DNA from: Patescibacteria group bacterium
GTDB taxonomy: Bacteria > Patescibacteriota > Patescibacteriia > Magasanikbacterales > UBA922
Length of the DNA: 64,000 nt
Direction of reading: 5' to 3'
Assembly (NCBI GenBank): GCA_028687045.1
Contig: JAQUAW010000001.1
Location: 2,034 to 66,033, forward strand
Shown here: positions 6,752-61,807 of the stretch, in pieces
Layout: every line of letters begins with the position of its first letter
Numbering within the stretch: position 1 is the stretch's first letter
Notes under the pieces: generated by a model
Seen by the model: only the letters and a program-made list of their open reading frames with translations
Told to the model about the DNA's origin: nothing
Databases searched by the model: none
Translations under genes and position numbers: made by a program

Positions 6752-6757
6752 AGAGTA

Positions 6758-6803
6758 CGGTCATCCTGAGCCGACGAAGTACGGCGTAAGGATCTTTCTT
6801 AAG
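6758..6803 (+). repeat. X-type hairpin repeat directly upstream of the ftsQ start
   Basis: CGGTCATCCTGAGCCGACGAAGTACGGCGTAAGGATCTTTCTTAAG. Confidence 0.7.
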
Positions 6804-6933
6804 AAGTACTTTTTAGAAATAATTTATGCTAATTGATTCTTATGATTTTGCTAATACTACTTAAAATATAAACATAATAAATTTTCCCCTCCATATTATT
6901 CTGTTAAATATAATTTATATTTTAGAGTTTGTA

Positions 6934-6966
6934 GGGTCTACAGATCCATCGCTCCGCTCAGGATAA
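6934..6966 (-). repeat. Y-type repeat, the inverted partner of 6758..6803
   Basis: Reverse complement is TTATCCTGAGCGGAGCGATGGATCTGTAGACCCT. Confidence 0.65.
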
Positions 6967-6967
6967 T

Positions 6968-15258: not shown

Positions 15259-15302
15259 GGTCATCCCGATCCGCCGAAGGACGGAAAGGGATCTTTCTTA
15301 AA
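15259..15302 (+). repeat. X-type repeat overlapping the serS 5' end
   Basis: GGTCATCCCGATCCGCCGAAGGACGGAAAGGGATCTTTCTTAAA. It has compensatory stem changes relative to copy 6758..6803. Confidence 0.7.
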
Positions 15303-15370
15303 TATAAATGTTTTTAAAATAATTGACGTTAATTGATTCTAAAAAATGTTTTTGAATAAATAAAAGTTAT

Positions 15371-15416
15371 CAGGGTCTACAGATCCATCATCGTATTCTC
15401 GACTCAGGATGACATT
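15371..15416 (-). repeat. Y-type repeat, the inverted partner of 15259..15302
   Basis: CAGGGTCTACAGATCCATCATCGTATTCTCGACTCAGGATGACATT. Confidence 0.65.
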
Positions 15417-16465: not shown

Positions 16466-16506
16466 AATCCCGAACCCGAGGAACGAGGGAAGGGATCTTT
16501 CTTAAA
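16462..16506 (+). repeat. X-type repeat at the start of the RdgB-Nudix gene
   Basis: TCACAATCCCGAACCCGAGGAACGAGGGAAGGGATCTTTCTTAAA. Confidence 0.7.
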
Positions 16507-16584
16507 TTAAAATTTTTAGAAAATACTTATGTTAATTGATTTTGAAAAACATGCAATTGAAATAGGTATTTTTATTATCACGTT

Positions 16585-16624
16585 TTGACAAATTTCTCCG
16601 CCAAATCGGCGGATCAATTTGTCA
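16585..16624. promoter_or_regulatory. Split palindrome TTGACAAATT–(22-bp GC hairpin)–AATTTGTCA
   Basis: The same half-sites recur at 33788..33809 and 50728..50752. Confidence 0.45.
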
Positions 16625-16628
16625 TTCC

Positions 16629-17048
16629 TTATGTTTTTTCTAATAACTTTTTTCTTATCTCCCCAGACTTATGTTGTTCTGGTTTGTAAGATTTCAACCG
16701 AACAACTTTTGTGTTCAATCTAAATTCTTTGATTTTTTCTTCTAATTTATCAATAAAATTTTGTTGATCATAACCAAGAGCTATTACATCTGGTTTTTCA
16801 GTTTTGATAACTTTGTAATAATCTATTTTATTTCCTAAAACAGCTTGGTCAATTATTCTTATATTTTTCAAGAATTCTAATCTCTCTTTTTCGTTATGAA
16901 CTAAAGTAATTTTCTTTATTTTTTTTGAAGTAATATCTCTTCCAACTACAACCACTAAATAACTCCCTAGTTTCTTGGCTTGTTTGAAAAGATTCAAGTG
17001 TCCCAAATGTACAATATCAAATGTTCCAAAGACCATTACTTTTTTCAT
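16629..17048 (-). CDS. Cytidylyltransferase-like nucleotidyltransferase (HxGH family)
   Basis: FGTFDIVHLGH motif; 139 aa. Confidence 0.55.
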   Translation of the reverse strand: MKKVMVFGTFDIVHLGHLNLFKQAKKLGSYLVVVVGRDITSKKIKKITLVHNEKERLEFLKNIRIIDQAVLGNKIDYYKVIKTEKPDVIALGYDQQNFIDKLEEKIKEFRLNTKVVRLKSYKPEQHKSGEIRKKLLEKT

Positions 17049-25086: not shown

Positions 25087-25087
25087 A

Positions 25088-25116
25088 TTGAGCGAAGCGA
25101 AATATCTTTCTTAAGG
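25088..25116 (+). repeat. X'-type repeat at the proS start
   Basis: TTGAGCGAAGCGAAATATCTTTCTTAAGG. Confidence 0.6.
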
Positions 25117-25227
25117 AATACTTCTATAACGCTTCAAATTAATTTTTATTAAATAACTATTTTAAATAACTTTTCTGAGAAGAAATAAATATTTTGTAAG
25201 AAAATTTTTCTTATTATAATATATTTA

Positions 25228-25253
25228 GGAAAGATTCTTCGCTCCGCTCAGAA
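25228..25253 (-). repeat. X'-type repeat, the inverted partner of 25088..25116 (about 110-bp spacer)
   Basis: GGAAAGATTCTTCGCTCCGCTCAGAA, the reverse complement of TTCTGAGCGGAGCGAAGAATCTTTCC. Confidence 0.6.
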
Positions 25254-29134: not shown

Positions 29135-29164
29135 ACTGAGCGGAGCGAAGTATCTTTCCTAAGG
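29135..29164 (+). repeat. X'-type repeat at the helicase-nuclease start
   Basis: ACTGAGCGGAGCGAAGTATCTTTCCTAAGG. Confidence 0.6.
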
Positions 29165-29283
29165 AAAATATCAATAATAAAAAAAAACTTCATCTATATT
29201 AAAATTGTTTAAGCTAGTATTATTCTACTACAATTCTTCAAAAAAACAAAATCTCCCCAACTAAGAGAGATTCTATTCCGCGT

Positions 29284-29320
29284 ATATCCGCGTAAATATC
29301 CGTTTAATCTGCGTTTTTAA
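29284..29320. repeat. Four phased TCCGCGT-like units with a 10-11-bp period
   Basis: TCCGCGTatatCCGCGTaaataTCCGTTTaaTCTGCGT. Related units occur at 46213..46239 and 19271..19287. Confidence 0.5.
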
Positions 29321-29463
29321 ACTCCACAATTACATCCACCACAACAACTGTCTTCTTTTTCTGTTTCCTCGTCACAAGCGCAAAAACCTTCATTATTGCA
29401 ACAGGTATCTTCTTGCTTTGGCTCTTCTTGTGAATCTTTTTCTTCTTTTGTTTCGTCTGACAT
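29317..29463 (-). CDS. Candidate 48-aa micro-protein: acidic N-terminus and a C-terminus with 8 Cys (…TCCNNEGFCACDEETEKEDSCCGGCNCGV). Not in the ORF track because it is under 60 aa.
   Basis: The ATG lies 13 bp downstream of the stop of 29477..30676 on the same strand, and the frame is open for 147 nt. Confidence 0.35.
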   Translation of the reverse strand: MSDETKEEKDSQEEPKQEDTCCNNEGFCACDEETEKEDSCCGGCNCGV

Positions 29464-29476
29464 ATATTTATTTTAG

Positions 29477-30733: not shown

Positions 30734-32518
30734 TCAAGCCATAAAACCACCAACTTGAATATCCCACAAATTACGATAAATACCATTTTTTTTCTTCAAA
30801 AGTACTTTGTGTGAACCTTGTTCAAGAATTCCACCTTGTTCTATCACCAAAATTCTATTTGAATTCATAATAGTCGAAAGTCTGTGTGCGACGATAATGA
30901 CAGTCTTACCTTTCATCAGATTTCCCAAAGCATCTTGGATAAGCTTTTCTGACTTAGAATCTAAACTAGAAGTTGCTTCGTCCAAAATCAAAATTGGGGA
31001 ATTTTTTAGTATTGCTCGAGCTATAGCTACGCGCTGTCTTTCACCGCCCGAAAGCTTGATACCTCTTTCTCCTACCAAAGTATTGTAACCATCTGCCAAA
31101 TTCAAAATAAAATCATGAGCATTGGCTTGCTTGGCAACAGACATCACTTCTTCATCACTAGCATCTGGTTTAGCATAACGAATATTTTCCATGATACTTC
31201 TATGAAAAAGCATCGGGTCTTGTGGCACAAGACTGACATTTTGCCATAAACTTTCTTGCGTACACTTGGCAATGTTTTGTCCATCTATCAGAATTTTTCC
31301 ACCAGAAATATCATGTTGACGTAAAAGCAATTTTACAATAGTAGACTTCCCTGCACCTGAGGAACCAACGAGGGCTATTTTTTCTTGAGGCTTGATTACC
31401 AAATCCATTTTTTTGATTATTTCTCTAGTTTTGTTGTAAGCAAAAGAAACTTCTTTGAATTCTATTTTACCTGTCGTAACTTGTAATTTTTTGGCATTTT
31501 TGACATCTTGTATGTCATAAGGCATATTTAGTATCTCAGTCATTTCTTCGGCGTCAGCCAGTGATTCATAAAAATCTCTAATTACACGACCAAAGCCAAA
31601 AAACTTTTCAAAAATAATAATAAGATAAGATTGAATCAAAATAAAATCACCAACTGTAATACTACCAGCTTGCCAAACTTTGACAGCATAAAACAACATC
31701 ACGATTTCCAACAAAATCATCAACATCCATTGTATACCATCAAACCAAGTGGAAATGTCCCAAGAAAATTTTCTTATTTTCCTTAGATCTTCTGTTTTTT
31801 GTTCAAATTCTTTACACTCTCTACCATAACCAACCAACAACTTTACATTGGTATTATTAGTAAAAGAATCAGCCAAAAAAGCTCCAACCTTGGAATCTAG
31901 CTGACTTCTCTCAAAATCATATTTTAATTTGAATTTACTAAAAAAGTAACTAGTCAAAACAAAGATGAATATCCAAGAAATTATTATTAAAGCAAAAAAC
32001 TTGTTACGACTAAATAAGACAATAGAAATAAGTGTAACATTGATAATGATAGGCAAAAGATCCCAAATTATTCTATCTGAAATTCTATCAAAAGCTTGTA
32101 CAAATCTACCAACTTTTTTTACCAGAGAACCTACGAAGCTGTTGTTGAAAAAAGAAAAAGAATGTTTGTGAACTTTGGAAAAACAAGCATCATTCAAATC
32201 TTTTAGACTGTCTGTGCTAAACTTTATGTACAAAAAAGCCATGACACGGATAAAAAACCACTGCAAAATTTTTATACCCAAAATAATAAATAATGTGGTA
32301 TAGAGAATCTCAACATTAGGATTAGTAGACAAGACATCAAAAAACTTTTTGTACCAATAAGGAGCCAATATTGAAAAAGCATCACCAATCAATAACAACA
32401 AAAACATAGACATAAAGCTCCATTTGTATTTCCAAGCTTGTTGCCAATAAATTTTCAAAGTTATTTTGGTATTATTTTTCATAAGTAATTTATTTTTTTT
32501 GCAATAAAAAAACGTCAA
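30734..32518 (-). CDS. ABC exporter with fused permease and ATPase (MsbA-like half transporter)
   Basis: Six-TM N-terminal half, then GSSGAGKST Walker A, LSGGERQRVAIARAIL signature and ILILDEATS Walker B. Confidence 0.85.
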   Translation of the reverse strand: MTFFYCKKNKLLMKNNTKITLKIYWQQAWKYKWSFMSMFLLLLIGDAFSILAPYWYKKFFDVLSTNPNVEILYTTLFIILGIKILQWFFIRVMAFLYIKFSTDSLKDLNDACFSKVHKHSFSFFNNSFVGSLVKKVGRFVQAFDRISDRIIWDLLPIIINVTLISIVLFSRNKFFALIIISWIFIFVLTSYFFSKFKLKYDFERSQLDSKVGAFLADSFTNNTNVKLLVGYGRECKEFEQKTEDLRKIRKFSWDISTWFDGIQWMLMILLEIVMLFYAVKVWQAGSITVGDFILIQSYLIIIFEKFFGFGRVIRDFYESLADAEEMTEILNMPYDIQDVKNAKKLQVTTGKIEFKEVSFAYNKTREIIKKMDLVIKPQEKIALVGSSGAGKSTIVKLLLRQHDISGGKILIDGQNIAKCTQESLWQNVSLVPQDPMLFHRSIMENIRYAKPDASDEEVMSVAKQANAHDFILNLADGYNTLVGERGIKLSGGERQRVAIARAILKNSPILILDEATSSLDSKSEKLIQDALGNLMKGKTVIIVAHRLSTIMNSNRILVIEQGGILEQGSHKVLLKKKNGIYRNLWDIQVGGFMA

Positions 32519-33236
32519 TAGTATTATACACCTTTTGACGTTTTTTTAAAATAGTTTTTTTAAAAAATAAAAAACAATAATAAAAAATAATTATTGTTTA
32601 TCTTTAAAATCTTATAATTATTATTTACAAAATAAATTATAAAAAATTCAAATTACAATAATTAACAAATCTTTTGTCAAAATCAATCTAAATTTTTGTT
32701 TCAAAAAACCAAAACTTAGATTGATTGAGACGACGTACCTCCTTTGTTAAAGTAATCTCAATCCTCCTTTTGTTCTTCTTTTTTTTCGATGAGCCCTCAC
32801 AATGGGGGCTTTACCGAAGAATGGTGTTGAATGGCTCTGCCAAACACCACCACAAAGCTGAACCGAGCTACAAGAGGATGATCGGAACCCTCCACTTTAA
32901 ACTCGTATATACCAGACGTAACAAAAATAAACAGAAAATTATGATGCACTTCTTCGACTACTCGGCACTGTGGCCGCTTAGCCAAAAAGTGAATCATATA
33001 CATCAAAACGCCTTCATGCGTTTTGATGTGTTGACCACAAAAAGTTGGAAGAAAAGAGATACTACGTAGGTGATAAAGTCTGCAAACAGTCTTGATATCT
33101 CCACTGTTCACAGCACCAACACACCTCCCTAAAAAAGCTGTATTGCGCCGCCACGACTCTGTCGCGGCAGCTAAAAATAGAAACAAAGCCAAGAAAGGCA
33201 CTGTTGCCAAAAGATCCACCTGGACCTCCTAGAAAT

Positions 33237-33458
33237 GCGACTTCACAACGTGAGAACTTCTCACGCCATTCAGTCGCTGGTTTCTATCTAAAAAATAGAC
33301 AAAAATCAGCAACTGAATTTTTTGGCACGCACAAAATCATACTCTCCGACATATCCACTGTCAATTACTATATCCTTGACAGAGTGTAATTTGTCGTTCT
33401 ATTTGTAAAAGTTCTCTATACAAAAAAATACACCTAATTTAATAGATGTATTTTTTTT
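33237..33458. repeat. Copy 1 of a 210-220-bp direct repeat. It contains a GC-rich nested hairpin, a degenerate TTGACA palindrome and a terminal hairpin with a T run.
   Basis: About 90% identical to 33650..33866. Starts GCGACTTCACAACGTGAGAACTTCTCACGCCATTCAGTCGC. Confidence 0.7.
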
Positions 33459-33649
33459 GCCCCTCCTTTCCTCCTTTGTGTATGTGAATGGTTGGGCAAT
33501 TACCTCAAGCGGATCCCCAATAGCGGGAATCTCCACCTGAAGCCCCTGATTTCCGGCGGCTGTTTAGCCAGCCGGAAACCATCAACAACACAATGACGGG
33601 AGACACTCCCGCCAAAAACTCCAAAAAGCTCATGTGAGCCTCCGAAACG

Positions 33650-33866
33650 GCGACTTCGCAACGTGAGTACTTCCCACGCCATTCAGTCGCTAGTTTCTAT
33701 CTAAAAAATAGACAAAAATCAGCAACTGAATTTTTTAGCACGCACAAAATAATACTCTTTGACATATCCACTGTCAATTACTTTACCCTTGACAAATTTC
33801 AATTTGTCGTTCTATTTGTAAAAGTTATTTATATAAAAAAATACACCTATTTTCTAGGTGTATTTT
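33650..33866. repeat. Copy 2 of the same direct repeat. It contains the perfect palindrome CTTGACAAATTTCAATTTGTCG and the terminator TACACCTAttttcTAGGTGTATTTT.
   Basis: Aligns to copy 1 with a 413-bp period. Confidence 0.7.
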
Positions 33867-33885
33867 AATTAATTTATTTTAATTT

Positions 33886-35160
33886 CTAAACAAGATAACG
33901 TAAGAAAATATAGACAGTACACATCACCAAAGCTACAAAAGTCAAAGGTAATGCCATCTTCATATACTCCCAAAAACCAATACCATGACCTTCTTTACTA
34001 GCAATACCACTTACTACAACATTGGCTGAAGCACCAACCAAGGTCGCATTTCCACCAATATCAGCACCAAGAGCCAATGCCCACCAAATTGGTGCCAAAG
34101 GTAGTCCTGCAATAGTTCCTAAATCTTTGACAAGTGGGATCATAGTAGCTACAAATGGAATATTATCAATTACAGCTGAAAATATAGCTGAACCCCACAA
34201 AACACTCAAAGTAGTAGCTGTCATGTTTCCACCAGTAAGATTTAGCAAACCTTCAGCCAACATACGAATAGCGCCAACTTCTTCTAGAGCTACAACCAAG
34301 ATGAAAAGTCCCATGAAGAAAAATATTGTAGTCCATTCTACTTCTTTCAAATGTTCTTCTGGATCATGCATGGTCAAAAGCAACATAAGAGCAGCACCAC
34401 CAAGAGCGATAGTAGCACCTTCTAAATGAGTTACACTATGGGTAAAAAATCCAACCAAAACTATAGCCAAGACAAATAATGCTTTTTTTAACAATTTTAC
34501 GTCAGACAAAGCTTCTCTTGGATTAAATTTTGCGATAGTAGCTTGTGCTTCTGCAGTAGCCACAAGTTGCTTGCGATAAATGAAAACCAAAAGTGCAATA
34601 GTAACAATAGAAACAAGAACAGAAATAGGTCCAAGATTAACCAAAAAATCATTGAAAGTAAGACCACTAGCACTACCAATAAGAATGTTTGGCGGATCTC
34701 CGATAAGAGTAGCTGTACCACCAATATTGGCCAACAAAATAGCACCTATAAGAAATGGCTTAGGGTGAATTTTCAAATTATGAGCAACCACAAAAGTGAC
34801 TGGTATCATAAGAAGTACAGTAGTCACATTGTCGAGCAAAGCAGAAAAAACAGCAACAATAGTTAGTAATAATATATATATTTTTACAGGGTTACCCTTA
34901 CCAACTTTGGTAGCCCAGATAGCCACATATTGAAACATACCACTGTGTTTGGCTATTCCCACAATAATCATCATACCAATCAAAAGGCCTAGAGTATTGA
35001 AGTCAATCCCCTCAATTGCTTTTTCTTGTGTCACAATACCAAGCAAAACCATCAATCCCGCACCAGCCATAGCAATGACAGTACGATGAATTTTTTCAGA
35101 GATGATAATAGCGTAAGTAGTAATAAAGACAACAAGTGTAATCCAAAAAAAGATTCCCAT
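33886..35160 (-). CDS. ArsB/NhaD-superfamily ion transporter permease
   Basis: 424 aa, about 10-12 TM helices, with a duplicated internal-repeat architecture typical of the ArsB/NhaD/CitMHS group. Confidence 0.65.
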   Translation of the reverse strand: MGIFFWITLVVFITTYAIIISEKIHRTVIAMAGAGLMVLLGIVTQEKAIEGIDFNTLGLLIGMMIIVGIAKHSGMFQYVAIWATKVGKGNPVKIYILLLTIVAVFSALLDNVTTVLLMIPVTFVVAHNLKIHPKPFLIGAILLANIGGTATLIGDPPNILIGSASGLTFNDFLVNLGPISVLVSIVTIALLVFIYRKQLVATAEAQATIAKFNPREALSDVKLLKKALFVLAIVLVGFFTHSVTHLEGATIALGGAALMLLLTMHDPEEHLKEVEWTTIFFFMGLFILVVALEEVGAIRMLAEGLLNLTGGNMTATTLSVLWGSAIFSAVIDNIPFVATMIPLVKDLGTIAGLPLAPIWWALALGADIGGNATLVGASANVVVSGIASKEGHGIGFWEYMKMALPLTFVALVMCTVYIFLRYLV

Positions 35161-35658: not shown

Positions 35659-35781
35659 ATATTCTATATATTATATATAAATTAAATTGCTTTTTGCATT
35701 ATTTCTAATTTAGAACATACAACATTATAAGATAATTTTAGTATAATTTCAAGGGTAACAGTGGATAAATATTTAAACAAC

Positions 35782-47729: not shown

Positions 47730-47744
47730 ATATTTTTTACTAAT

Positions 47745-47775
47745 CTTGAGCGGAGCGAAAGATCTGTAGACCCTG
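47745..47775 (+). repeat. Y-type repeat upstream of the atpA start
   Basis: CTTGAGCGGAGCGAAAGATCTGTAGACCCTG. Confidence 0.6.
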
Positions 47776-47804
47776 CGAACGCTTCTTTTAATTTAAATGT
47801 TTTT

Positions 47805-48191: not shown

Positions 48192-48200
48192 ATATTTACG

Positions 48201-48243
48201 TCATTCCGACCCGCCGAATCGGCGGGGAGGGATATTTCTTAAA
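48201..48243 (+). repeat. X-type repeat upstream of the atpH start
   Basis: TCATTCCGACCCGCCGAATCGGCGGGGAGGGATATTTCTTAAA, with the perfect inner stem CCCGCCGA/TCGGCGGG. Confidence 0.65.
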
Positions 48244-48308
48244 TCTAAATTATTTTAATTTACAAAACTTTCAAATGATTCTAAAATACTTTTTCAATTA
48301 ATTTATTA

Positions 48309-50157: not shown

Positions 50158-50192
50158 AATTTATTTATTTTGATTTCCATAATTAATGGTGT

Positions 50193-50278
50193 TCTCCCCC
50201 TTGTAGGGGGAGCTAGAGGGGGTTAATGACAATTTAATCAACGTCGAACCCCACCTGACCTCCCCTACAAGGGGAGGA
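50193..50278. repeat. GC-rich composite hairpin element between atpZ and atpB
   Basis: CTCCCCCttgtaGGGGGAG and its inverted twin CCTCCCCtacaaGGGGAGG flank a third hairpin, AGGGGGTT…AACCCCAC. Confidence 0.55.
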
Positions 50279-50297
50279 ACTCTCTAAAAAGTTTTAT

Positions 50298-50558
50298 TTA
50301 TTTTTTTTCGTCAAGTTTCTTATACTCTTCCCCATACAACTTAGCTTTCTTATAAATCATTTTAGTAGAAAGAAAGGCAGCCAAGAGAAAAGCTGAGATA
50401 GTAAACCAAGGAGCGTGTCCATATTTACCTTCAAGCCACTGACCAATTAAGACAAAAACTATAATAGGTACAGCAATTATGGCTCCAAAATCACCCACAA
50501 TACGTAGACCCAACATCATATATTTTCTATCTTTTGGATCTTCTGGTAAAAGAGACAT
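50298..50558 (-). CDS. AtpZ/AtpI-like small membrane protein encoded upstream of atpB
   Basis: 86 aa with two TM helices, in the leader position of the atp operon. Confidence 0.5.
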   Translation of the reverse strand: MSLLPEDPKDRKYMMLGLRIVGDFGAIIAVPIIVFVLIGQWLEGKYGHAPWFTISAFLLAAFLSTKMIYKKAKLYGEEYKKLDEKK

Positions 50559-50727
50559 ATTTTTTGAAAGAATGTCTAGAATAAAAACGGTGCTATTATA
50601 ACTGTTTTAACCCATTTAGTCAATTATTTAGCAAATTTGTTGTGAATAATAATAACTAGACAAAATTTGGCCAAAAAATAACACGCCATCAGTTTAGCAA
50701 AAACAAATACGATGTCAATCTGATTAC

Positions 50728-50752
50728 CCTTGACAAATTGGAATTTGTTGTT
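50728..50752. promoter_or_regulatory. Operator-like palindrome CCTTGACAAATTggAATTTGTTG. It overlaps a -35-like TTGACA and lies upstream of tatD.
   Basis: Near-identical to the site at 33788..33809. Confidence 0.45.
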
Positions 50753-50842
50753 CTAAAACAAATAAGCGTTATTTACTCTTAAATAACAAAGAATCTCAAA
50801 ATTACCGAGATTCTTTTTTATTTTATAAATTTTTCAATCAAA

Positions 50843-50880
50843 ACTTTCGTAATTTCGTACTGTTCGTATTTCGTATCCCT
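50843..50880. repeat. TTCGTA array (4 units with an 8-9-bp period) downstream of tatD
   Basis: CTTTCGTAATTTCGTACTGTTCGTATTTCGTATCCCT is a direct repeat of 51790..51830. Confidence 0.6.
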
Positions 50881-50886
50881 CAAAAC

Positions 50887-51732
50887 CTAAATTTTAATCT
50901 TATCAAACAACCTCAAACTATTTTCCCAAATAATATTTTGGACTTCCTTAACACTCAAATCTTTTATAATAGCTACTTGTTTGAGGACTTCTTCTACCAT
51001 CCAAGGTTCACAACGTTTGCCACGATACTTTTGAGGAGCGAGATATGGAGCATCTGTTTCTATCAAAAATCTATCCAAAGGAACATTTTTTACTACTTCC
51101 CACAAATCTTTTTGAATTTTTGGTTCTGTCTTTTTGCTAGGAAAAGTGATAATACCCGTGAAACCCAGATACAAACCAAAATCCAAATATTTTTGAGCAA
51201 CTTCCCAATCTCCACTAAAACAATGTACTACTCCACGTATTGGCTTAGGTAATGTTTCTAATACAGCAATTAGCTCTTTGTGAGCATCACGAACGTGAAT
51301 TACCAATGGTAAATTATGTTTTATAGCAAAATGATATTGCGCCAAAAATATTTCTTTTTGTTTTTTCAAAACTTCTTCAACTGTTTTGTCTTTCGGAACA
51401 TGATACAATTCAAAACCACATTCCCCTACTGCAATTACTTTGTCTGACTTAGCAAGTTCAGCAAAATATTCTTCATCAAAATTTTCTTCACGAGAAACAA
51501 AAGATGATTCTTCTTCATCGACATAAGTTGGAAATAAGTGTATTGGATGAATCCCGATTGAAGCAAAAATATTAGAATTACTTTCAGCTAACTCCACCGC
51601 TTTTCTACTCGTTTCTTTTTGGGTACCAATAGCATGAAGCCAAATATTTTTTTCAGCACAAACTTCAAGCACTTTTTCACGCTCTTCATCAAAACCTTTG
51701 AATTGTATATGGCAGTGAGAGTCAAACAACAT
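50887..51732 (-). CDS. tatD: TatD-family metal-dependent DNase/hydrolase
   Basis: N-terminal FDSHCH and a TIM-barrel motif layout. Confidence 0.85.
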   Translation of the reverse strand: MLFDSHCHIQFKGFDEEREKVLEVCAEKNIWLHAIGTQKETSRKAVELAESNSNIFASIGIHPIHLFPTYVDEEESSFVSREENFDEEYFAELAKSDKVIAVGECGFELYHVPKDKTVEEVLKKQKEIFLAQYHFAIKHNLPLVIHVRDAHKELIAVLETLPKPIRGVVHCFSGDWEVAQKYLDFGLYLGFTGIITFPSKKTEPKIQKDLWEVVKNVPLDRFLIETDAPYLAPQKYRGKRCEPWMVEEVLKQVAIIKDLSVKEVQNIIWENSLRLFDKIKI

Positions 51733-51742
51733 ACTATTAACT

Positions 51743-51830
51743 GGATACGAAATACGAAAATTTACGAAAGTACGAACTACGGAACTTTCGTATGTTCGTA
51801 CTTTTCGTATTTCGTATCCCTATTAACGAA
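51743..51830. repeat. Long imperfect palindrome built from the same TTCGTA/TACGAA units, upstream of tatD
   Basis: GGATACGAAATACGAAAATTTACGAAAGTACGAAC…CTTTCGTATGTTCGTACTTTTCGTATTTCGTATCC. Confidence 0.6.
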
Positions 51831-52437: not shown

Positions 52438-52454
52438 TTATTTTTGTGGTTTGT

Positions 52455-52602
52455 GAGGAGAACGGTGGGACTCACGTTTGTCTGTCGACTACGGGTATTG
52501 ACGCGAAGGAGGCACGTCAGCACCGCACGTAGAGCAAACTACCAGTCCATCTAGGGAGCAAACTCCCCAGACTATGGCCGCGAGCACTCCACCGTTCCCC
52601 TC
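52455..52602. ncRNA. Candidate structured ncRNA of about 150 nt, identity unknown. It has a long terminal helix and two internal hairpins. The strand is uncertain.
   Basis: About 60% GC in a roughly 30% GC genome. The 5' GAGGAGAACGGTGGGACTCACG pairs with the 3' CGCGAGCACTCCACCGTTCCCCTC. Internal hairpins are CTACG..TGACG..CGTCA..CGTAG and GGGAGcaaaCTCCC. Confidence 0.45.
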
Positions 52603-52662
52603 AACCACAAACTACGATATTTTAGTTAATTTGTCAATAGTTAGTTATAAAAGCAGTTCAAT

Positions 52663-54183
52663 CTATTTCTCTAATCTTACAAACAAAATATCTGCTTTTT
52701 TGATTTTTTTTCCTTCTTGCAATAAACCCCATTTTTTTTCTTCAGCAAAATTGTCTGAAACTTCCAAATTCAATTGAGACAAAATCTTTTCTGCAGTTCC
52801 AGGAATAATTGGTACCAGTGATAAAGCCAAATGTCGTAGACCTTCTACCAATTGATACAATAAAACAGAGATATTTTCACCAGTCTTCACTTTTTCCCAA
52901 GGTTTTTCTTCAGAAATTTTCAAATCTATCTTAGAAACCAAGGAATTGATATTTTTTATTACTTCTTCAAAATCAAATTTAGCAAAAGCACTTTCATAAT
53001 CTAACCAAAATTTTTCTGTTCCAAAAATATCTGTTGCAAGGGCTGGTACCTTATTTTCTTGATATTTTTCAATCATAGTCAAAATACGAGAAGTAAGATT
53101 ACCAATACCATTTACTAGATGAGCGGTGTAGAAATTTTCAAAACGTGATACTGAAAAATCACCATCTTTAGTTGAAGAAACTGCTCCAAGCAAATAATAA
53201 CGTACAGCATCTGTTCCATATTTAGTAACAACATCTTCTGGATTCACGACATTTCCTAGAGATTTACTCATCTTCTCTCCTTCAGTTGTCAAATAACCAT
53301 GTATAAATTCTGTTGTTGGCAAATCCAAACCTGCAGAAATAAGCATAGCCGGCCAGTAAAGAACATGAAATTTGCCAATACCTTTGCCAATTACATGCAC
53401 TACTTCCCTATTTTCTTGATCATTTTGTTCCCAATATTTTGCAAACAAACTTTCATCACTACTACCAAAATTTAAACCTGTTATATAATTTGACAAAGCA
53501 TCCACCCAAACATACATAATTTGACTTTCATCACCTGGAACTTTTACCCCCCAATTGTGAGCACGCTCTGCACTACGAGAAATACTAAAATCTTCCAATC
53601 CTCTATCTATAAAAGCAAGCCACTCATTTTTACGAAATTCTGGAGTAATATTTATAATGTTTTTTTCTAACAATTCTTTCAATTTTTCTTGGTAATTGGA
53701 AAGTTTGAAAAACCAATTTTCTTCTTCAACCACTTCCGGTACAGTCTTATGTTCCAAACATTTACCATCCTCGAGTTCTTCTTCTTTATAAAAAGCTTCA
53801 CAACCAACGCAATACAAACCTTTGTATTTTCTTTTTTCTAAATCTTCTTTCTTGAAATTATTCCACAATTTTTGGGCACCTTTCATATGTCTATCTTCTG
53901 TAGTACGAATGAAGCCATCAAAAGAAATATTCAAAATATTTTTGAAATTATAAAATTCTTTGTAGTATTCATCAACAAATTCTTGAACACCCTTGCCAGC
54001 TTTTTCAGCTGCTTGTACATTTTTGAGAGAGTTTTCATCAGTACCGGACAAAAAGAAAACATCTTTACCCACAAGTCTATGATAACGAGCTATTGCATCT
54101 GTTTGAATATATTCAAGAGCATGTCCAATATGAGGTTTGCCATTGATATAAGGAATAGCGGTTGAAATATAATACTTATTCAT
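52663..54183 (-). CDS. metG: Methionyl-tRNA synthetase
   Basis: HIGH (PHIGHALE) and KMSKS motifs. Confidence 0.9.
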   Translation of the reverse strand: MNKYYISTAIPYINGKPHIGHALEYIQTDAIARYHRLVGKDVFFLSGTDENSLKNVQAAEKAGKGVQEFVDEYYKEFYNFKNILNISFDGFIRTTEDRHMKGAQKLWNNFKKEDLEKRKYKGLYCVGCEAFYKEEELEDGKCLEHKTVPEVVEEENWFFKLSNYQEKLKELLEKNIINITPEFRKNEWLAFIDRGLEDFSISRSAERAHNWGVKVPGDESQIMYVWVDALSNYITGLNFGSSDESLFAKYWEQNDQENREVVHVIGKGIGKFHVLYWPAMLISAGLDLPTTEFIHGYLTTEGEKMSKSLGNVVNPEDVVTKYGTDAVRYYLLGAVSSTKDGDFSVSRFENFYTAHLVNGIGNLTSRILTMIEKYQENKVPALATDIFGTEKFWLDYESAFAKFDFEEVIKNINSLVSKIDLKISEEKPWEKVKTGENISVLLYQLVEGLRHLALSLVPIIPGTAEKILSQLNLEVSDNFAEEKKWGLLQEGKKIKKADILFVRLEK

Positions 54184-54979: not shown

Positions 54980-55232
54980 AATCCTTATTTCTTAATTCTT
55001 AGTTCTTATATAATAACAAATCTAGCCAAAAAATCAAACTATTGACAAAAAAACGAATTTAAAGTAGATTGACTAATCAATTTTGACTAAACAAGGTCAA
55101 ATTTTGTCTACCAAAGATGCTGTCAAACTATTTAACATTATCTTTGGCAGACCAAAAGTCTGCAAACAGACCTGAGAAGGAACGAGCTGGAAGTACCAGA
55201 ACGTCTCTTCTCACCTGCACCTTGGGAGAGGT

Positions 55233-55460
55233 GTGGAAATAAGACGAACAAAGGCCGACACCTACATCAGTGTAGGTTCGGCCATCGGCGCTATAGCGGG
55301 CGCCGTCTTCGGCCTCGAGGCCGGAGGAAACATGGGTGCAGGAATCTTCTGCACCGTGGTCGGCTCCGCACTTGGAGTCGTCCTTGGACTGGTCGCTATG
55401 CCAGTCCTAAAACTAACCGCTGCGGCGTTTGTCAGATCTGACAAACGCCGCGATCTCTAA
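55233..55460 (+). CDS. Small Gly-zipper membrane protein encoded in a GC-rich island. Alternate start codon; the gene model is uncertain.
   Basis: GSAIGAIAGAVFGLEAGGNMGAGIFCTVVGSALGVVLGLVAM carries GxxxG repeats. Local GC is near 58%. It is followed by two hairpin terminators. Confidence 0.4.
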   Translation: MEIRRTKADTYISVGSAIGAIAGAVFGLEAGGNMGAGIFCTVVGSALGVVLGLVAMPVLKLTAAAFVRSDKRRDL

Positions 55461-55510
55461 CAGCCGTGGGCAGAAGCTAAAAACTTCTTTGCCCACGGCC
55501 ATCCAATCTT
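55413..55510 (+). terminator. Tandem hairpins ending in T8 downstream of the Gly-zipper ORF
   Basis: GCGGCGTTTGTCAGATCTGACAAACGCCGC is a perfect palindrome. It is followed by CCGTGGGCA…TGCCCACGG and then ATCTTGccaaaaCAAGATTTTTTTT. Confidence 0.6.
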
Positions 55511-55585
55511 GCCAAAACAAGATTTTTTTTATTTTTTATGCTATAATATGAAAACTAAATAGAAATTAATGTCTAAAATAAAAAT

Positions 55586-59680: not shown

Positions 59681-59754
59681 ACTAGTAAACACAACAGATT
59701 CGGCCTAATAAACCGATAAACTAATAAACTCAATATTTCATGAAGCAACATGCA

Positions 59755-59786
59755 CAGGATCTACAGATCTCTCGCTACGCTTCGAG
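59755..59786 (-). repeat. Y-type repeat upstream of the def start
   Basis: CAGGATCTACAGATCTCTCGCTACGCTTCGAG. Confidence 0.55.
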
Positions 59787-59804
59787 ATTTATTATAGAAT
59801 TCCT

Positions 59805-61362: not shown

Positions 61363-61370
61363 CCAATTTT

Positions 61371-61413
61371 GTCATCCTGAACCGACGAAGTACGGTGAAG
61401 GATCTTTCCTAAA
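61371..61413 (+). repeat. X-type repeat between fmt and the GIY-YIG gene
   Basis: GTCATCCTGAACCGACGAAGTACGGTGAAGGATCTTTCCTAAA. Confidence 0.7.
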
Positions 61414-61437
61414 ATAATTTTAATTAATAAATAATTT

Positions 61438-61728: not shown

Positions 61729-61749
61729 TTGGAAGTGTATAAATTTAAA

Positions 61750-61784
61750 AAAGATTCTTCGTCCTCTACGGGACTCAGAATGAC
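61750..61784 (-). repeat. Diverged X-type repeat in inverted orientation, downstream of the GIY-YIG gene
   Basis: AAAGATTCTTCGTCCTCTACGGGACTCAGAATGAC. Confidence 0.5.
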
Positions 61785-61807
61785 AGTTAGAAAGATTAGT
61801 TTAATCC

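What the first reader, a model, noticed from the sequence alone, without database searches (positions are those of the whole stretch)
33788..33809. Recurrent operator-like palindrome TTGACAAATT-n2-AATTTGTC overlapping a -35 box at several loci
Seen: near-perfect copies occur at 33788..33809 and 50728..50752, the latter upstream of tatD and preceded by the same CCC. A degenerate copy lies at 33376..33398. At 16585..16624 the two half-sites are split by a 22-bp GC hairpin related to the X-type repeat core (CCGCCAAATCGGCGG), as if a repeat had inserted into the operator. A 10+10 palindrome that includes TTGACA is the classic layout of a repressor site occluding the -35.
Basis: seen in the sequence. 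Interest (0 to 1): 0.55.

Follow-up and report, generated by a model that had tools for sequence, protein, structure and literature searches.

The report
Duplicated promoter module carrying a palindrome
The repeated palindrome is real, but it is one variable piece of a short promoter-region block copied to a few sites in an uncultured (CPR, Magasanikbacteria) bacterium; it lies upstream of the real promoters rather than over their -35 box, and I found no sign of a wider regulon.

Summary
The copies exist and are far beyond chance. The reading as a repressor operator over a -35 box is mostly wrong. The window is from a Candidatus Magasanikbacteria genome (32% GC), and almost all local genes are on the minus strand. 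On that strand each copy reads TAGAAC-[GACAAATT nn AATTTGTC]AAGGGT-N6-ATTGACA(-35)-N16/17-TAnnnT(-10)-GCGTG. The palindrome therefore sits at about -66..-49, upstream of near-consensus minus-strand promoters. These promoters drive two tandem GC-rich small-ORF units and form the distal promoter of the atp operon. tatD lies upstream of the motif, not downstream. Across orthologous atp promoters only the promoter-proximal arm, TTTGTCAAGGGT, is invariant; the partner arm decays, and more distant relatives lack the whole distal promoter. Genome and metagenome scans found only orthologues of these two loci. The site at 16585-16624 is a conserved stem 4 nt after a stop codon, with different GC inserts in different lineages. 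A fifth, inverted partial copy at 35749-35767 uses the same block as the -35 of a good promoter. My best reading is a lineage-specific, duplicated promoter-upstream protein-binding element of modest interest.

The parts
33791..33808 (.). Copy A: perfect palindrome GACAAATT-tc-AATTTGTC, at about -49..-66 of the minus-strand promoter
33785..33796 (-). Invariant core TTTGTCAAGGGT of copy A (plus strand ACCCTTGACAAA, an inverted TTGACA back to back with the real -35)
   Evidence: 12 of 12 columns invariant in five orthologous atp promoters
33809..33814 (-). TAGAAC block on the distal side of the palindrome. It is shared by A, B, C, L041, L097 and L109 and absent in L110
33749..33777 (-). Promoter of unit A: TTGACA-17-TATTAT (11/12), followed by GCGTG, a hairpin leader and a GC-rich 42-codon ORF
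33838..33866 (.). Bidirectional terminator of the ArsB-like gene 33886-35160. It lies between that gene and copy A
33378..33395 (.). Copy B: degenerate paralogue. The inner part of the proximal arm is changed; TAGAACGACAAATT and TGTCAAGGA are kept
33336..33364 (-). Promoter of unit B: TTGACA-17-TATGAT (11/12). It drives the same leader and the 140-codon GC-rich ORF 32797-33219
33237..33436 (-). Tandem duplicate (terminator end, motif, promoter, leader) of 33650-33849; 91.5% identical
50732..50749 (.). Copy C: GACAAATT-gg-AATTTGTT; core ACCCTTGACAA at 50726-50736, GTTCTA at 50750-50755
50691..50718 (-). Distal atp promoter P1: TTGACA-16-TAAACT with an extended -10 TG
50595..50623 (-). Proximal atp promoter P2: TTGACT-17-TATAAT. 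This is the only atp promoter in more distant relatives, and it has no motif
50788..50816 (.). Terminator of tatD, between tatD and copy C
16586..16624 (-). Copy D: arms TGACAAATT / AATTTGTCA around the GC hairpin TCCGCC-n5-GGCGGA, 4 nt after the stop of the 139-aa cytidylyltransferase-family (FAD-synthase-like) gene 16629-17048. No promoter or terminator pattern here
35749..35767 (-). Copy E: inverted partial copy TATCCACTGT-TACCCTTGA. It shares two exact 9-mers with module A read on the plus strand
35724..35752 (-). Promoter TTGAAA-17-TATAAT (11/12) whose -35 is the ACCC-TTGAAA block of copy E. It drives the CBS-domain gene and the ArsB-like gene

Best explanation
The palindrome is one part of a short promoter-region module of about 45-75 bp. 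This narrow Magasanikbacteria lineage has copied the module to a few intergenic sites. On the strand of the genes the module reads TAGAAC-[GACAAATT nn AATTTGTC]AAGGGT-N6-ATTGACA(-35)-N16/17-TAnnnT(-10)-N4/5-GCGTG. It serves the distal promoter of the atp operon and the promoters of two tandem GC-rich small-ORF units. The palindrome sits at about -66..-49, upstream of the -35 and not over it. The constrained part is the promoter-proximal arm plus AAGGGT (TTTGTCAAGGGT, -54..-43), which is an inverted TTGACA placed back to back with the true -35. I think this block is a protein-binding upstream element of the minus-strand promoters. The conserved arm would be a strong half-site and the variable distal arm a weaker partner for a dimeric regulator that modulates these already strong promoters. 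Shown: the position, strand, copy relationships and conservation pattern. Inferred: that a regulator binds, and what it does.
For: Minus-strand promoters scoring 10-11 of 12 lie 13 bp from the palindrome in A, B and C, and genes follow in that direction. A and C share a 43-nt block running from TAGAAC to the -35, plus GCGTG near the start site. In five orthologous atp upstream regions the 12 columns of TTTGTCAAGGGT are invariant, as well conserved as the -35 and -10 elements of P1 and P2, while neighbouring columns vary. GACA-N10-TGTC survives in B and L110 although the inner arm positions changed. The arms form a perfect 8+8 palindrome in A and 7+7 in C, L041 and L097. The RNA hairpin is weak (-5.7 and -2.3 kcal/mol; z = -2.7 and +0.7), which argues against an RNA role at A and C.
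Against: No regulator was identified; none of the 30 window proteins tested had an HTH domain. There are only two independent promoter loci, and A may simply be a copy of C. Conservation is asymmetric: the distal arm is lost in L109 and L110. P1 has a consensus -35 and an extended -10, so it should not need an activator. The centre at about -57.5 does not fit the classical class I positions of -61.5 and -71.5 (from memory). Copy D has the same arms with no promoter. Copy E uses the block in the opposite orientation, as a -35.
Confidence: 0.4

Rival explanations
1. A small hairpin-forming intergenic repeat family with arms GAAyGACAAATT ... AATTTGTCAA. It lies 3' of genes and has no dedicated regulator. 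At A and C it merely sits beside promoters, and only the arm that overlaps promoter-upstream DNA is kept by selection.
For: Copy D has identical arms, the same central GA and the same GAAy/AA flanks as A, but no promoter. Its arms are conserved in orthologues at 88-93% protein identity, while the sequence between the arms is 11, 21 or 30 nt long and different in each. One arm change (C to T opposite G) is compatible with G-U pairing on the sense strand. D folds at -23 kcal/mol, z = -6.1. All copies follow the 3' end of a gene, in the same orientation. The palindrome decays in B, L109 and L110.
Against: Only four or five copies were found in 64 kb and none elsewhere in about 238 kb of related DNA. 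The A and C hairpins are very weak as RNA and lie beyond the terminators. This reading does not explain the 12/12 invariance of one arm plus AAGGGT.
Confidence: 0.25
2. ACCC-TTGACA is the -35 of a weak plus-strand promoter placed back to back with the main promoter. The partner arm in its spacer is a repressor operator. The product would be a very short divergent or antisense transcript ending in the bidirectional terminator.
For: TTGACA is perfect in all seven variants. The variable part falls where a spacer would be, and TA of GTTCTA falls 18 nt downstream in six of seven variants. Copy E uses the same block as the -35 of an 11/12 promoter. By my reading of the sequence, L097 has TTGACA-18-TAAGAT. 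Perfect TTGACA inside a conserved 12-mer is unlikely by chance (about 0.003 by my estimate).
Against: No plus-strand promoter using this hexamer passes the scan at A, B or C. The -7 T is present in only two of seven variants, and the spacer is 18 bp. There is no downstream gene, only a terminator 12-25 nt beyond the putative start and the 3' end of a convergent gene.
Confidence: 0.15
3. An ECF-type sigma promoter (GAAC ... GTCAAG) in tandem with the sigma-70-type promoter.
For: GAAC and GTC(A)A resemble ECF -35 and -10 elements (from memory). Both are conserved in A, B, C, L041, L097 and L109.
Against: The AAC-to-GTC distance is 15 nt, against about 17 in the ECF promoters I recall. L110 lacks GAAC but keeps the core. 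A conserved palindromic spacer is not expected in an ECF promoter.
Confidence: 0.04

Closest known systems
Upstream regulator sites of bacterial sigma-70 promoters (class I activator sites, auxiliary operators, LysR-type recognition sites near -65); from general knowledge
   Same: A dyad-symmetric sequence of 16-18 bp centred 20-30 bp upstream of a -35 hexamer, at a fixed distance from it, with one half better conserved than the other.
   Different: No cognate regulator is known. Only two independent promoters carry it. The centre at about -57.5 is off the classical class I positions. The conserved half is itself a perfect inverted -35 hexamer.
Classical repressor operator overlapping a -35 box
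   Same: A palindrome that contains TTGACA.
   Different: That TTGACA is on the strand without a gene and without a passing -10. The gene-facing promoters have their own -35 13 bp away.
Back-to-back divergent promoters
   Same: Two TTGACA hexamers in opposite orientation, 11 bp apart. A paralogous copy (E) uses the 'reverse' hexamer as a working-looking -35.
   Different: There is nothing to transcribe on the divergent side except a terminator, and the -10 is poor.
REP-like extragenic palindromes, and mobile GC clusters of AT-rich genomes such as yeast mitochondria (from memory)
   Same: Copy D is a hairpin just after a stop codon in an AT-rich genome, with lineage-specific GC-rich hairpins between conserved AT-rich arms.
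   Different: Very few copies. No associated transposase was seen. The A and C copies have a 2-nt centre and sit at promoters.

Membership tests
Repressor operator overlapping the -35 of the regulated promoter | The palindrome overlaps the -35 (or -10) of a promoter that has a matching second hexamer | tested here: not met
   No plus-strand promoter using the palindrome's TTGACA passes the scan. The minus-strand promoters have their -35 13 bp away.
Repressor operator overlapping the -35 of the regulated promoter | A gene or RNA lies downstream of that promoter | tested here: not met
   Plus-strand downstream sequence is a bidirectional terminator followed by the 3' end of a convergent gene.
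Transcription-factor regulon | The motif recurs upstream of several unrelated operons in one genome | tested here: not met
   The exact extended motif occurs once per species-representative genome. Only orthologues of loci A and C were found in the genome and metagenome scans. No further copies were found in about 238 kb of related DNA. Degenerate sites elsewhere in the genome could not be scanned.
Transcription-factor regulon | The site is conserved at orthologous promoters | tested here: inconclusive
   The proximal arm plus AAGGGT is invariant in five orthologues. The distal arm is lost in L109 and L110. The whole distal promoter is absent in relatives with 63-78% AtpZ identity.
Transcription-factor regulon | A cognate DNA-binding regulator exists | tested here: inconclusive
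   None of the 30 window proteins tested had an HTH domain. About half of the window's ORFs and the rest of the genome were not examined.
ECF sigma promoter | GAAC-type -35 and GTC-type -10 separated by about 16-17 nt | tested here: not met
   The spacing is 15 nt, and GAAC is absent in L110. The consensus spacing is from memory.
LexA (Gram-positive type) box | GAAC-N4-GTTC dyad | tested here: not met
   Only a single GAAC is present, and there is no GTTC partner at N4 on either side. The consensus is from memory.
Intrinsic terminator | A stable GC-containing hairpin followed by a U run | tested here: not met
   A and C fold at -5.7 and -2.3 kcal/mol and are not flagged by the scan; the true terminators lie 28-40 nt upstream. 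D is stable but has no U run.
Known RNA families (Rfam 15) | A match at the gathering score | tested here: not met
   No match in the whole window, and only weak sub-threshold matches in 32400-34000.
REP/MITE-like repeat | Many dispersed copies with conserved inverted-repeat ends | tested here: inconclusive
   There are five related copies in 64 kb (A, B, C, D, E), three of them in promoter modules. A genome-wide count was not obtainable.

The most novel reading that the evidence does not exclude
The arms GACAAATT/AATTTGTC mark a small family of palindromic intergenic elements in a CPR bacterium, and these elements do two things. First, they recruit an unknown dimeric regulator that ties ATP-synthase expression to a pair of GC-rich small membrane-peptide genes. 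Second, they act as landing pads whose centre repeatedly acquires different GC-rich hairpins, a bacterial counterpart of mitochondrial GC clusters.
Probability: 0.12. Interest if true: 0.5.

Novelty: new member of a known kind. Interest (0 to 1): 0.25.

Why it matters
Almost nothing is known about transcription control in CPR/Patescibacteria, which cannot be grown alone. A conserved upstream element on the atp distal promoter would be a concrete handle on regulation there. The evidence, however, points to a narrow, lineage-specific promoter duplication rather than a regulon, so the general importance is limited. The variable GC hairpins between conserved AT-rich arms at copy D, and the many other intergenic repeats in this window, may say more about how such small AT-rich genomes evolve their intergenic DNA.

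Tried and rejected
Rfam at gathering score on the whole window, Rfam at E-value up to 10 on 32400-34000, and a tRNA scan found nothing relevant.

A viral-contig scan with the bare palindrome gave 39 hits. None had the flanks, so these are chance.

Non-Magasanikbacteria hits from the genome and metagenome scans fell into four groups: a conserved Clostridium sp. CAG:567 locus, coding-region matches, scattered strong sigma-70 promoters of the form TTGACAAATTnnAATTTGT-n3/4-TATAAT, and a T4-like phage contig (L075). The downstream genes I looked at were unrelated (a long ORF starting MPVQHLAIIMDGNGRW that looks like UppS by eye, a tRNA-like sequence, secreted and membrane proteins, an RHH-like small ORF), so there is no shared regulon.

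I rejected four alternative identities by reading the sequence against consensus sequences recalled from memory: an ECF promoter, a LexA box, a sigma-B-type -10 (GGGTAA) and dif/parS sites.

I rejected a terminator or RNA role for A and C.

Literature searches for the motif or for Patescibacteria operators returned only primers and an unheld LexA paper.

The local alignment of E against A and C was not significant by score alone. The shared pair of exact 9-mers is significant (expectation 5e-5).

Two exact-protein look-ups failed: tatD and the 139-aa protein.

Full report
**Where the window comes from and how it is laid out**

The window has 31.8% G+C. It is 98% identical to part of JBAYVA010000001.1, a Candidatus Magasanikiibacteriota MAG contig of 474,546 bp. 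It is 92% identical around tatD to a Magasanikbacteria RIFOXYD12_FULL_33_17 contig. Proteins identical to window proteins are on record from a 68,348-bp NCBI 'Patescibacteria group bacterium' contig. Nearly every ORF between 4865 and 54979 is on the minus strand, so the motif has to be read on that strand.

**The observation**

- The sequences are as described.
- There are two matches to GACAAATTNNAATTTGTC with at most one mismatch, against 0.007 expected.
- The copy at 33378-33395 is not independent. It belongs to a 200-bp tandem duplicate, 33237-33436 against 33650-33849, 91.5% identical.
- tatD (50887-51732, TIGR00010) is on the minus strand. The 50732 copy therefore lies downstream of tatD and its terminator, and upstream of atpZ (50298-50558; PF09527) and atpB.

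**Anatomy on the minus strand**

Copies A, B and C all sit 13 bp upstream of the -35 of a near-consensus promoter:

- 33777->33749: TTGACA-17-TATTAT (11/12).
- 33364->33336: TTGACA-17-TATGAT (11/12).
- 50718->50691: TTGACA-16-TAAACT with an upstream TG (10/12).

The scan finds no plus-strand promoter that uses the palindrome's own TTGACA. If the last base of the -10 hexamer is -7, the palindrome spans about -49..-66. Upstream of each copy lies the bidirectional terminator of the preceding gene (33838-33866 and 50788-50816).

Downstream of A and B is a shared hairpin leader followed by GC-rich ORFs of 42 and 140 codons. Downstream of C is a second, proximal atp promoter (TTGACT-17-TATAAT, 50623->50595) and then the atp operon.

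**The copies are parts of a larger homologous block**

A and C share TAGAAC-R-ACAAATT-nn-AATTTGTCAAGGGTAA-N4-ATTGACA and GCGTG near the start site. A and the L041 orthologue also share positions in the -35/-10 spacer.

**Distribution**

I scanned the species-representative genome collection and the metagenome collection with ACAAATTNNAATTTGTCAAGG. Among Magasanikbacteria the scans returned only orthologues of A (L046, L067) and of C (L041, L076, L093, L097, L099). The other hits are unrelated.

I then fetched atp loci from relatives through AtpZ homologues.

- Relatives at 63-78% identity (L105-L108, L111) have short intergenic regions with only the proximal promoter and no motif.
- Relatives at 83-86% identity have the distal promoter.

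Seven sequence variants are now available. The invariant pattern across them is TTGTCAAGG(G/A)T-N6-(A/G)TTGACA-N16/17-TAnnnT-N4/5-GCG.

- In L109 the distal arm reads GAGTTATT instead of GACAAATT.
- In L110 both TAGAAC and the inner arm are gone, although GACA-N10-TGTC remains.
- In B the inner proximal arm is changed.

In the five-way alignment of atp upstream regions, TTTGTCAAGGGT is invariant at 12 of 12 columns. That is as well conserved as the P1 and P2 hexamers. The palindrome as such is therefore not the conserved unit. The conserved unit is its promoter-proximal arm plus AAGGGT, which on the other strand reads ACCCTTGACAAA.

**Copy D (16586-16624)**

On the minus strand copy D reads GAAtGACAAATT-GA-[TCCGCCGATTTGGCGGA]-GA-AATTTGTCAA. 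That is copy A with a 19-nt insertion at the centre. The expectation for such a split match is 5e-4.

- It starts 4 nt after the stop codon of the 139-aa cytidylyltransferase-family gene 16629-17048, which some source records name FAD synthase.
- It has no promoter-like or terminator-like neighbour.
- It folds at -23 kcal/mol, z = -6.1.
- Orthologues keep the arms (TGACAAATT ... AAATTTGTTA) but differ between them. L112-L115 carry a different 30-nt stretch with a GC hairpin, and L116-L119 carry only 11 nt.

D is therefore a conserved stem with a hypervariable tip. No relative shows the uninterrupted 2-nt-spaced palindrome at this locus.

**Copy E (35749-35767, minus strand)**

TATCCACTGT-TACCCTTGA shares two exact 9-mers, in the same order, with module A read on the plus strand (expectation 5e-5). 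Here ACCC-TTGAAA is the -35 of an 11/12 promoter, TTGAAA-17-TATAAT (35752->35724). That promoter faces the CBS-domain gene and the ArsB-like gene. E and A are thus inverted copies flanking that two-gene unit.

**Interpretation**

The conservation pattern, the fixed distance to the -35 and the dyad symmetry fit best with a protein-binding upstream element of the minus-strand promoters. It would have one strong half-site and one weak half-site, and it spread by promoter duplication within a narrow lineage (confidence about 0.4). Binding and regulatory effect are inferred; no regulator was found among the 30 window proteins tested.

Three rivals remain.

- A hairpin-forming intergenic repeat that merely neighbours promoters, supported by D (0.25).
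It is supported by E and by the perfect TTGACA. It is weakened by poor -10 hexamers, an 18-bp spacer and the absence of anything to transcribe (0.15).
- An ECF-type promoter, for which the spacing is wrong and GAAC is missing in L110 (0.04).

**Verdict**

The feature is real and non-random. It is lineage-specific and modest: a new member of a known kind (a promoter-associated cis element or small intergenic repeat). The regulon idea is not supported by the scans I could run.

Noticed in passing
33225-33870 (minus strand): Two tandem units, each made of terminator, motif, strong promoter, a shared leader of about 95 nt and then a GC-rich segment (about 50% GC in a 32% GC genome) with a 42-codon or 140-codon ORF. 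The leader has hairpins with one compensatory change (GUGGGAAGUACUCAC against GUGAGAAGUUCUCAC). Terminator-like hairpins lie inside unit A (33643-33624, 33614-33594). No Rfam family matches. An ABC exporter gene (30734-32518) follows.
   Followed up: partly
52438-52662 (minus strand): A GC-rich, apparently structured stretch of about 170 nt lies after a TTGACA-17-TAGTTT promoter, between the 506-aa ORF 52663-54183 and the CvpA-like gene. No Rfam match at gathering score.
   Followed up: no
54980-55585 (plus strand): Another GC-rich island after a TTGACA-17-TAGATT promoter. It contains a glycine-zipper-like small ORF and a perfect palindrome TTTGTCAGATCTGACAAA at 55428.
   Followed up: no
526-681, 6752-6967, 15265-15403, 16466-16628, 25087-25253, 29135-29476, 47730-47804, 48192-48308, 59681-59804, 61363-61437, 61729-61807: Composite intergenic repeats. 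Just after stop codons: GTCGAGAATACGAyGAnGGATCTGTAGACyCTGATAAC or CTGAGCGGAGCGAAGnATCT. Mid-spacer: TTAGAATCAATTAAC. Just before start codons: TTAAGAAAGATCCC-[variable GC hairpin]-GGGATT. The two ends are partly complementary.
   Followed up: no
50840-50886 and 51733-51822: A GGGATACGAAATACGAA... repeat. The second copy forms a long hairpin between the CvpA-like gene and tatD.
   Followed up: no
50158-50297: Two GC-rich hairpins (CTCCCCTTGTAGGGGAG and CTCCCCCTACAAGGGGGAG) lie between atpZ and atpB.
   Followed up: no
33759-33809 (plus strand): Module A holds four TTGACA-like hexamers in alternating orientation: TTGACA 33759, TGTCAA 33772, TTGACA 33789, TTGTCg 33804. The minus-strand promoter therefore also has a 6-7-6 inverted repeat, TTGACAGTGGATATGTCAA, across its own -35 and spacer. 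This is present in A and B and only partly in L041.
   Followed up: partly
L048 5057-5082 and L050 462-487 (JACRNJ01, 'Deltaproteobacteria' groundwater MAG): A perfect 28-bp palindrome, CCCTTGACAAATTATAATTTGTCAAGGG, lies inside a repeat present on two contigs, between two hairpins. Its half-site equals the conserved arm found here, but most of that arm was fixed by the search pattern.
   Followed up: partly
L043, L045, L060, L062 and many of L064-L104: Human-gut Clostridium sp. CAG:567-type genomes share a highly conserved intergenic locus with ACAAATTTAAATTTGTCAAGGTATGAT next to a terminator-like hairpin. It is unrelated to the Magasanikbacteria module.
   Followed up: no
L105 1049-1450, L106 1280-1678: In more distant Magasanikbacteria an Rrf2-family regulator gene and Fe-S cluster assembly genes lie a few kb upstream of tatD-atp. 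No counterpart was seen among the window proteins tested.
   Followed up: no
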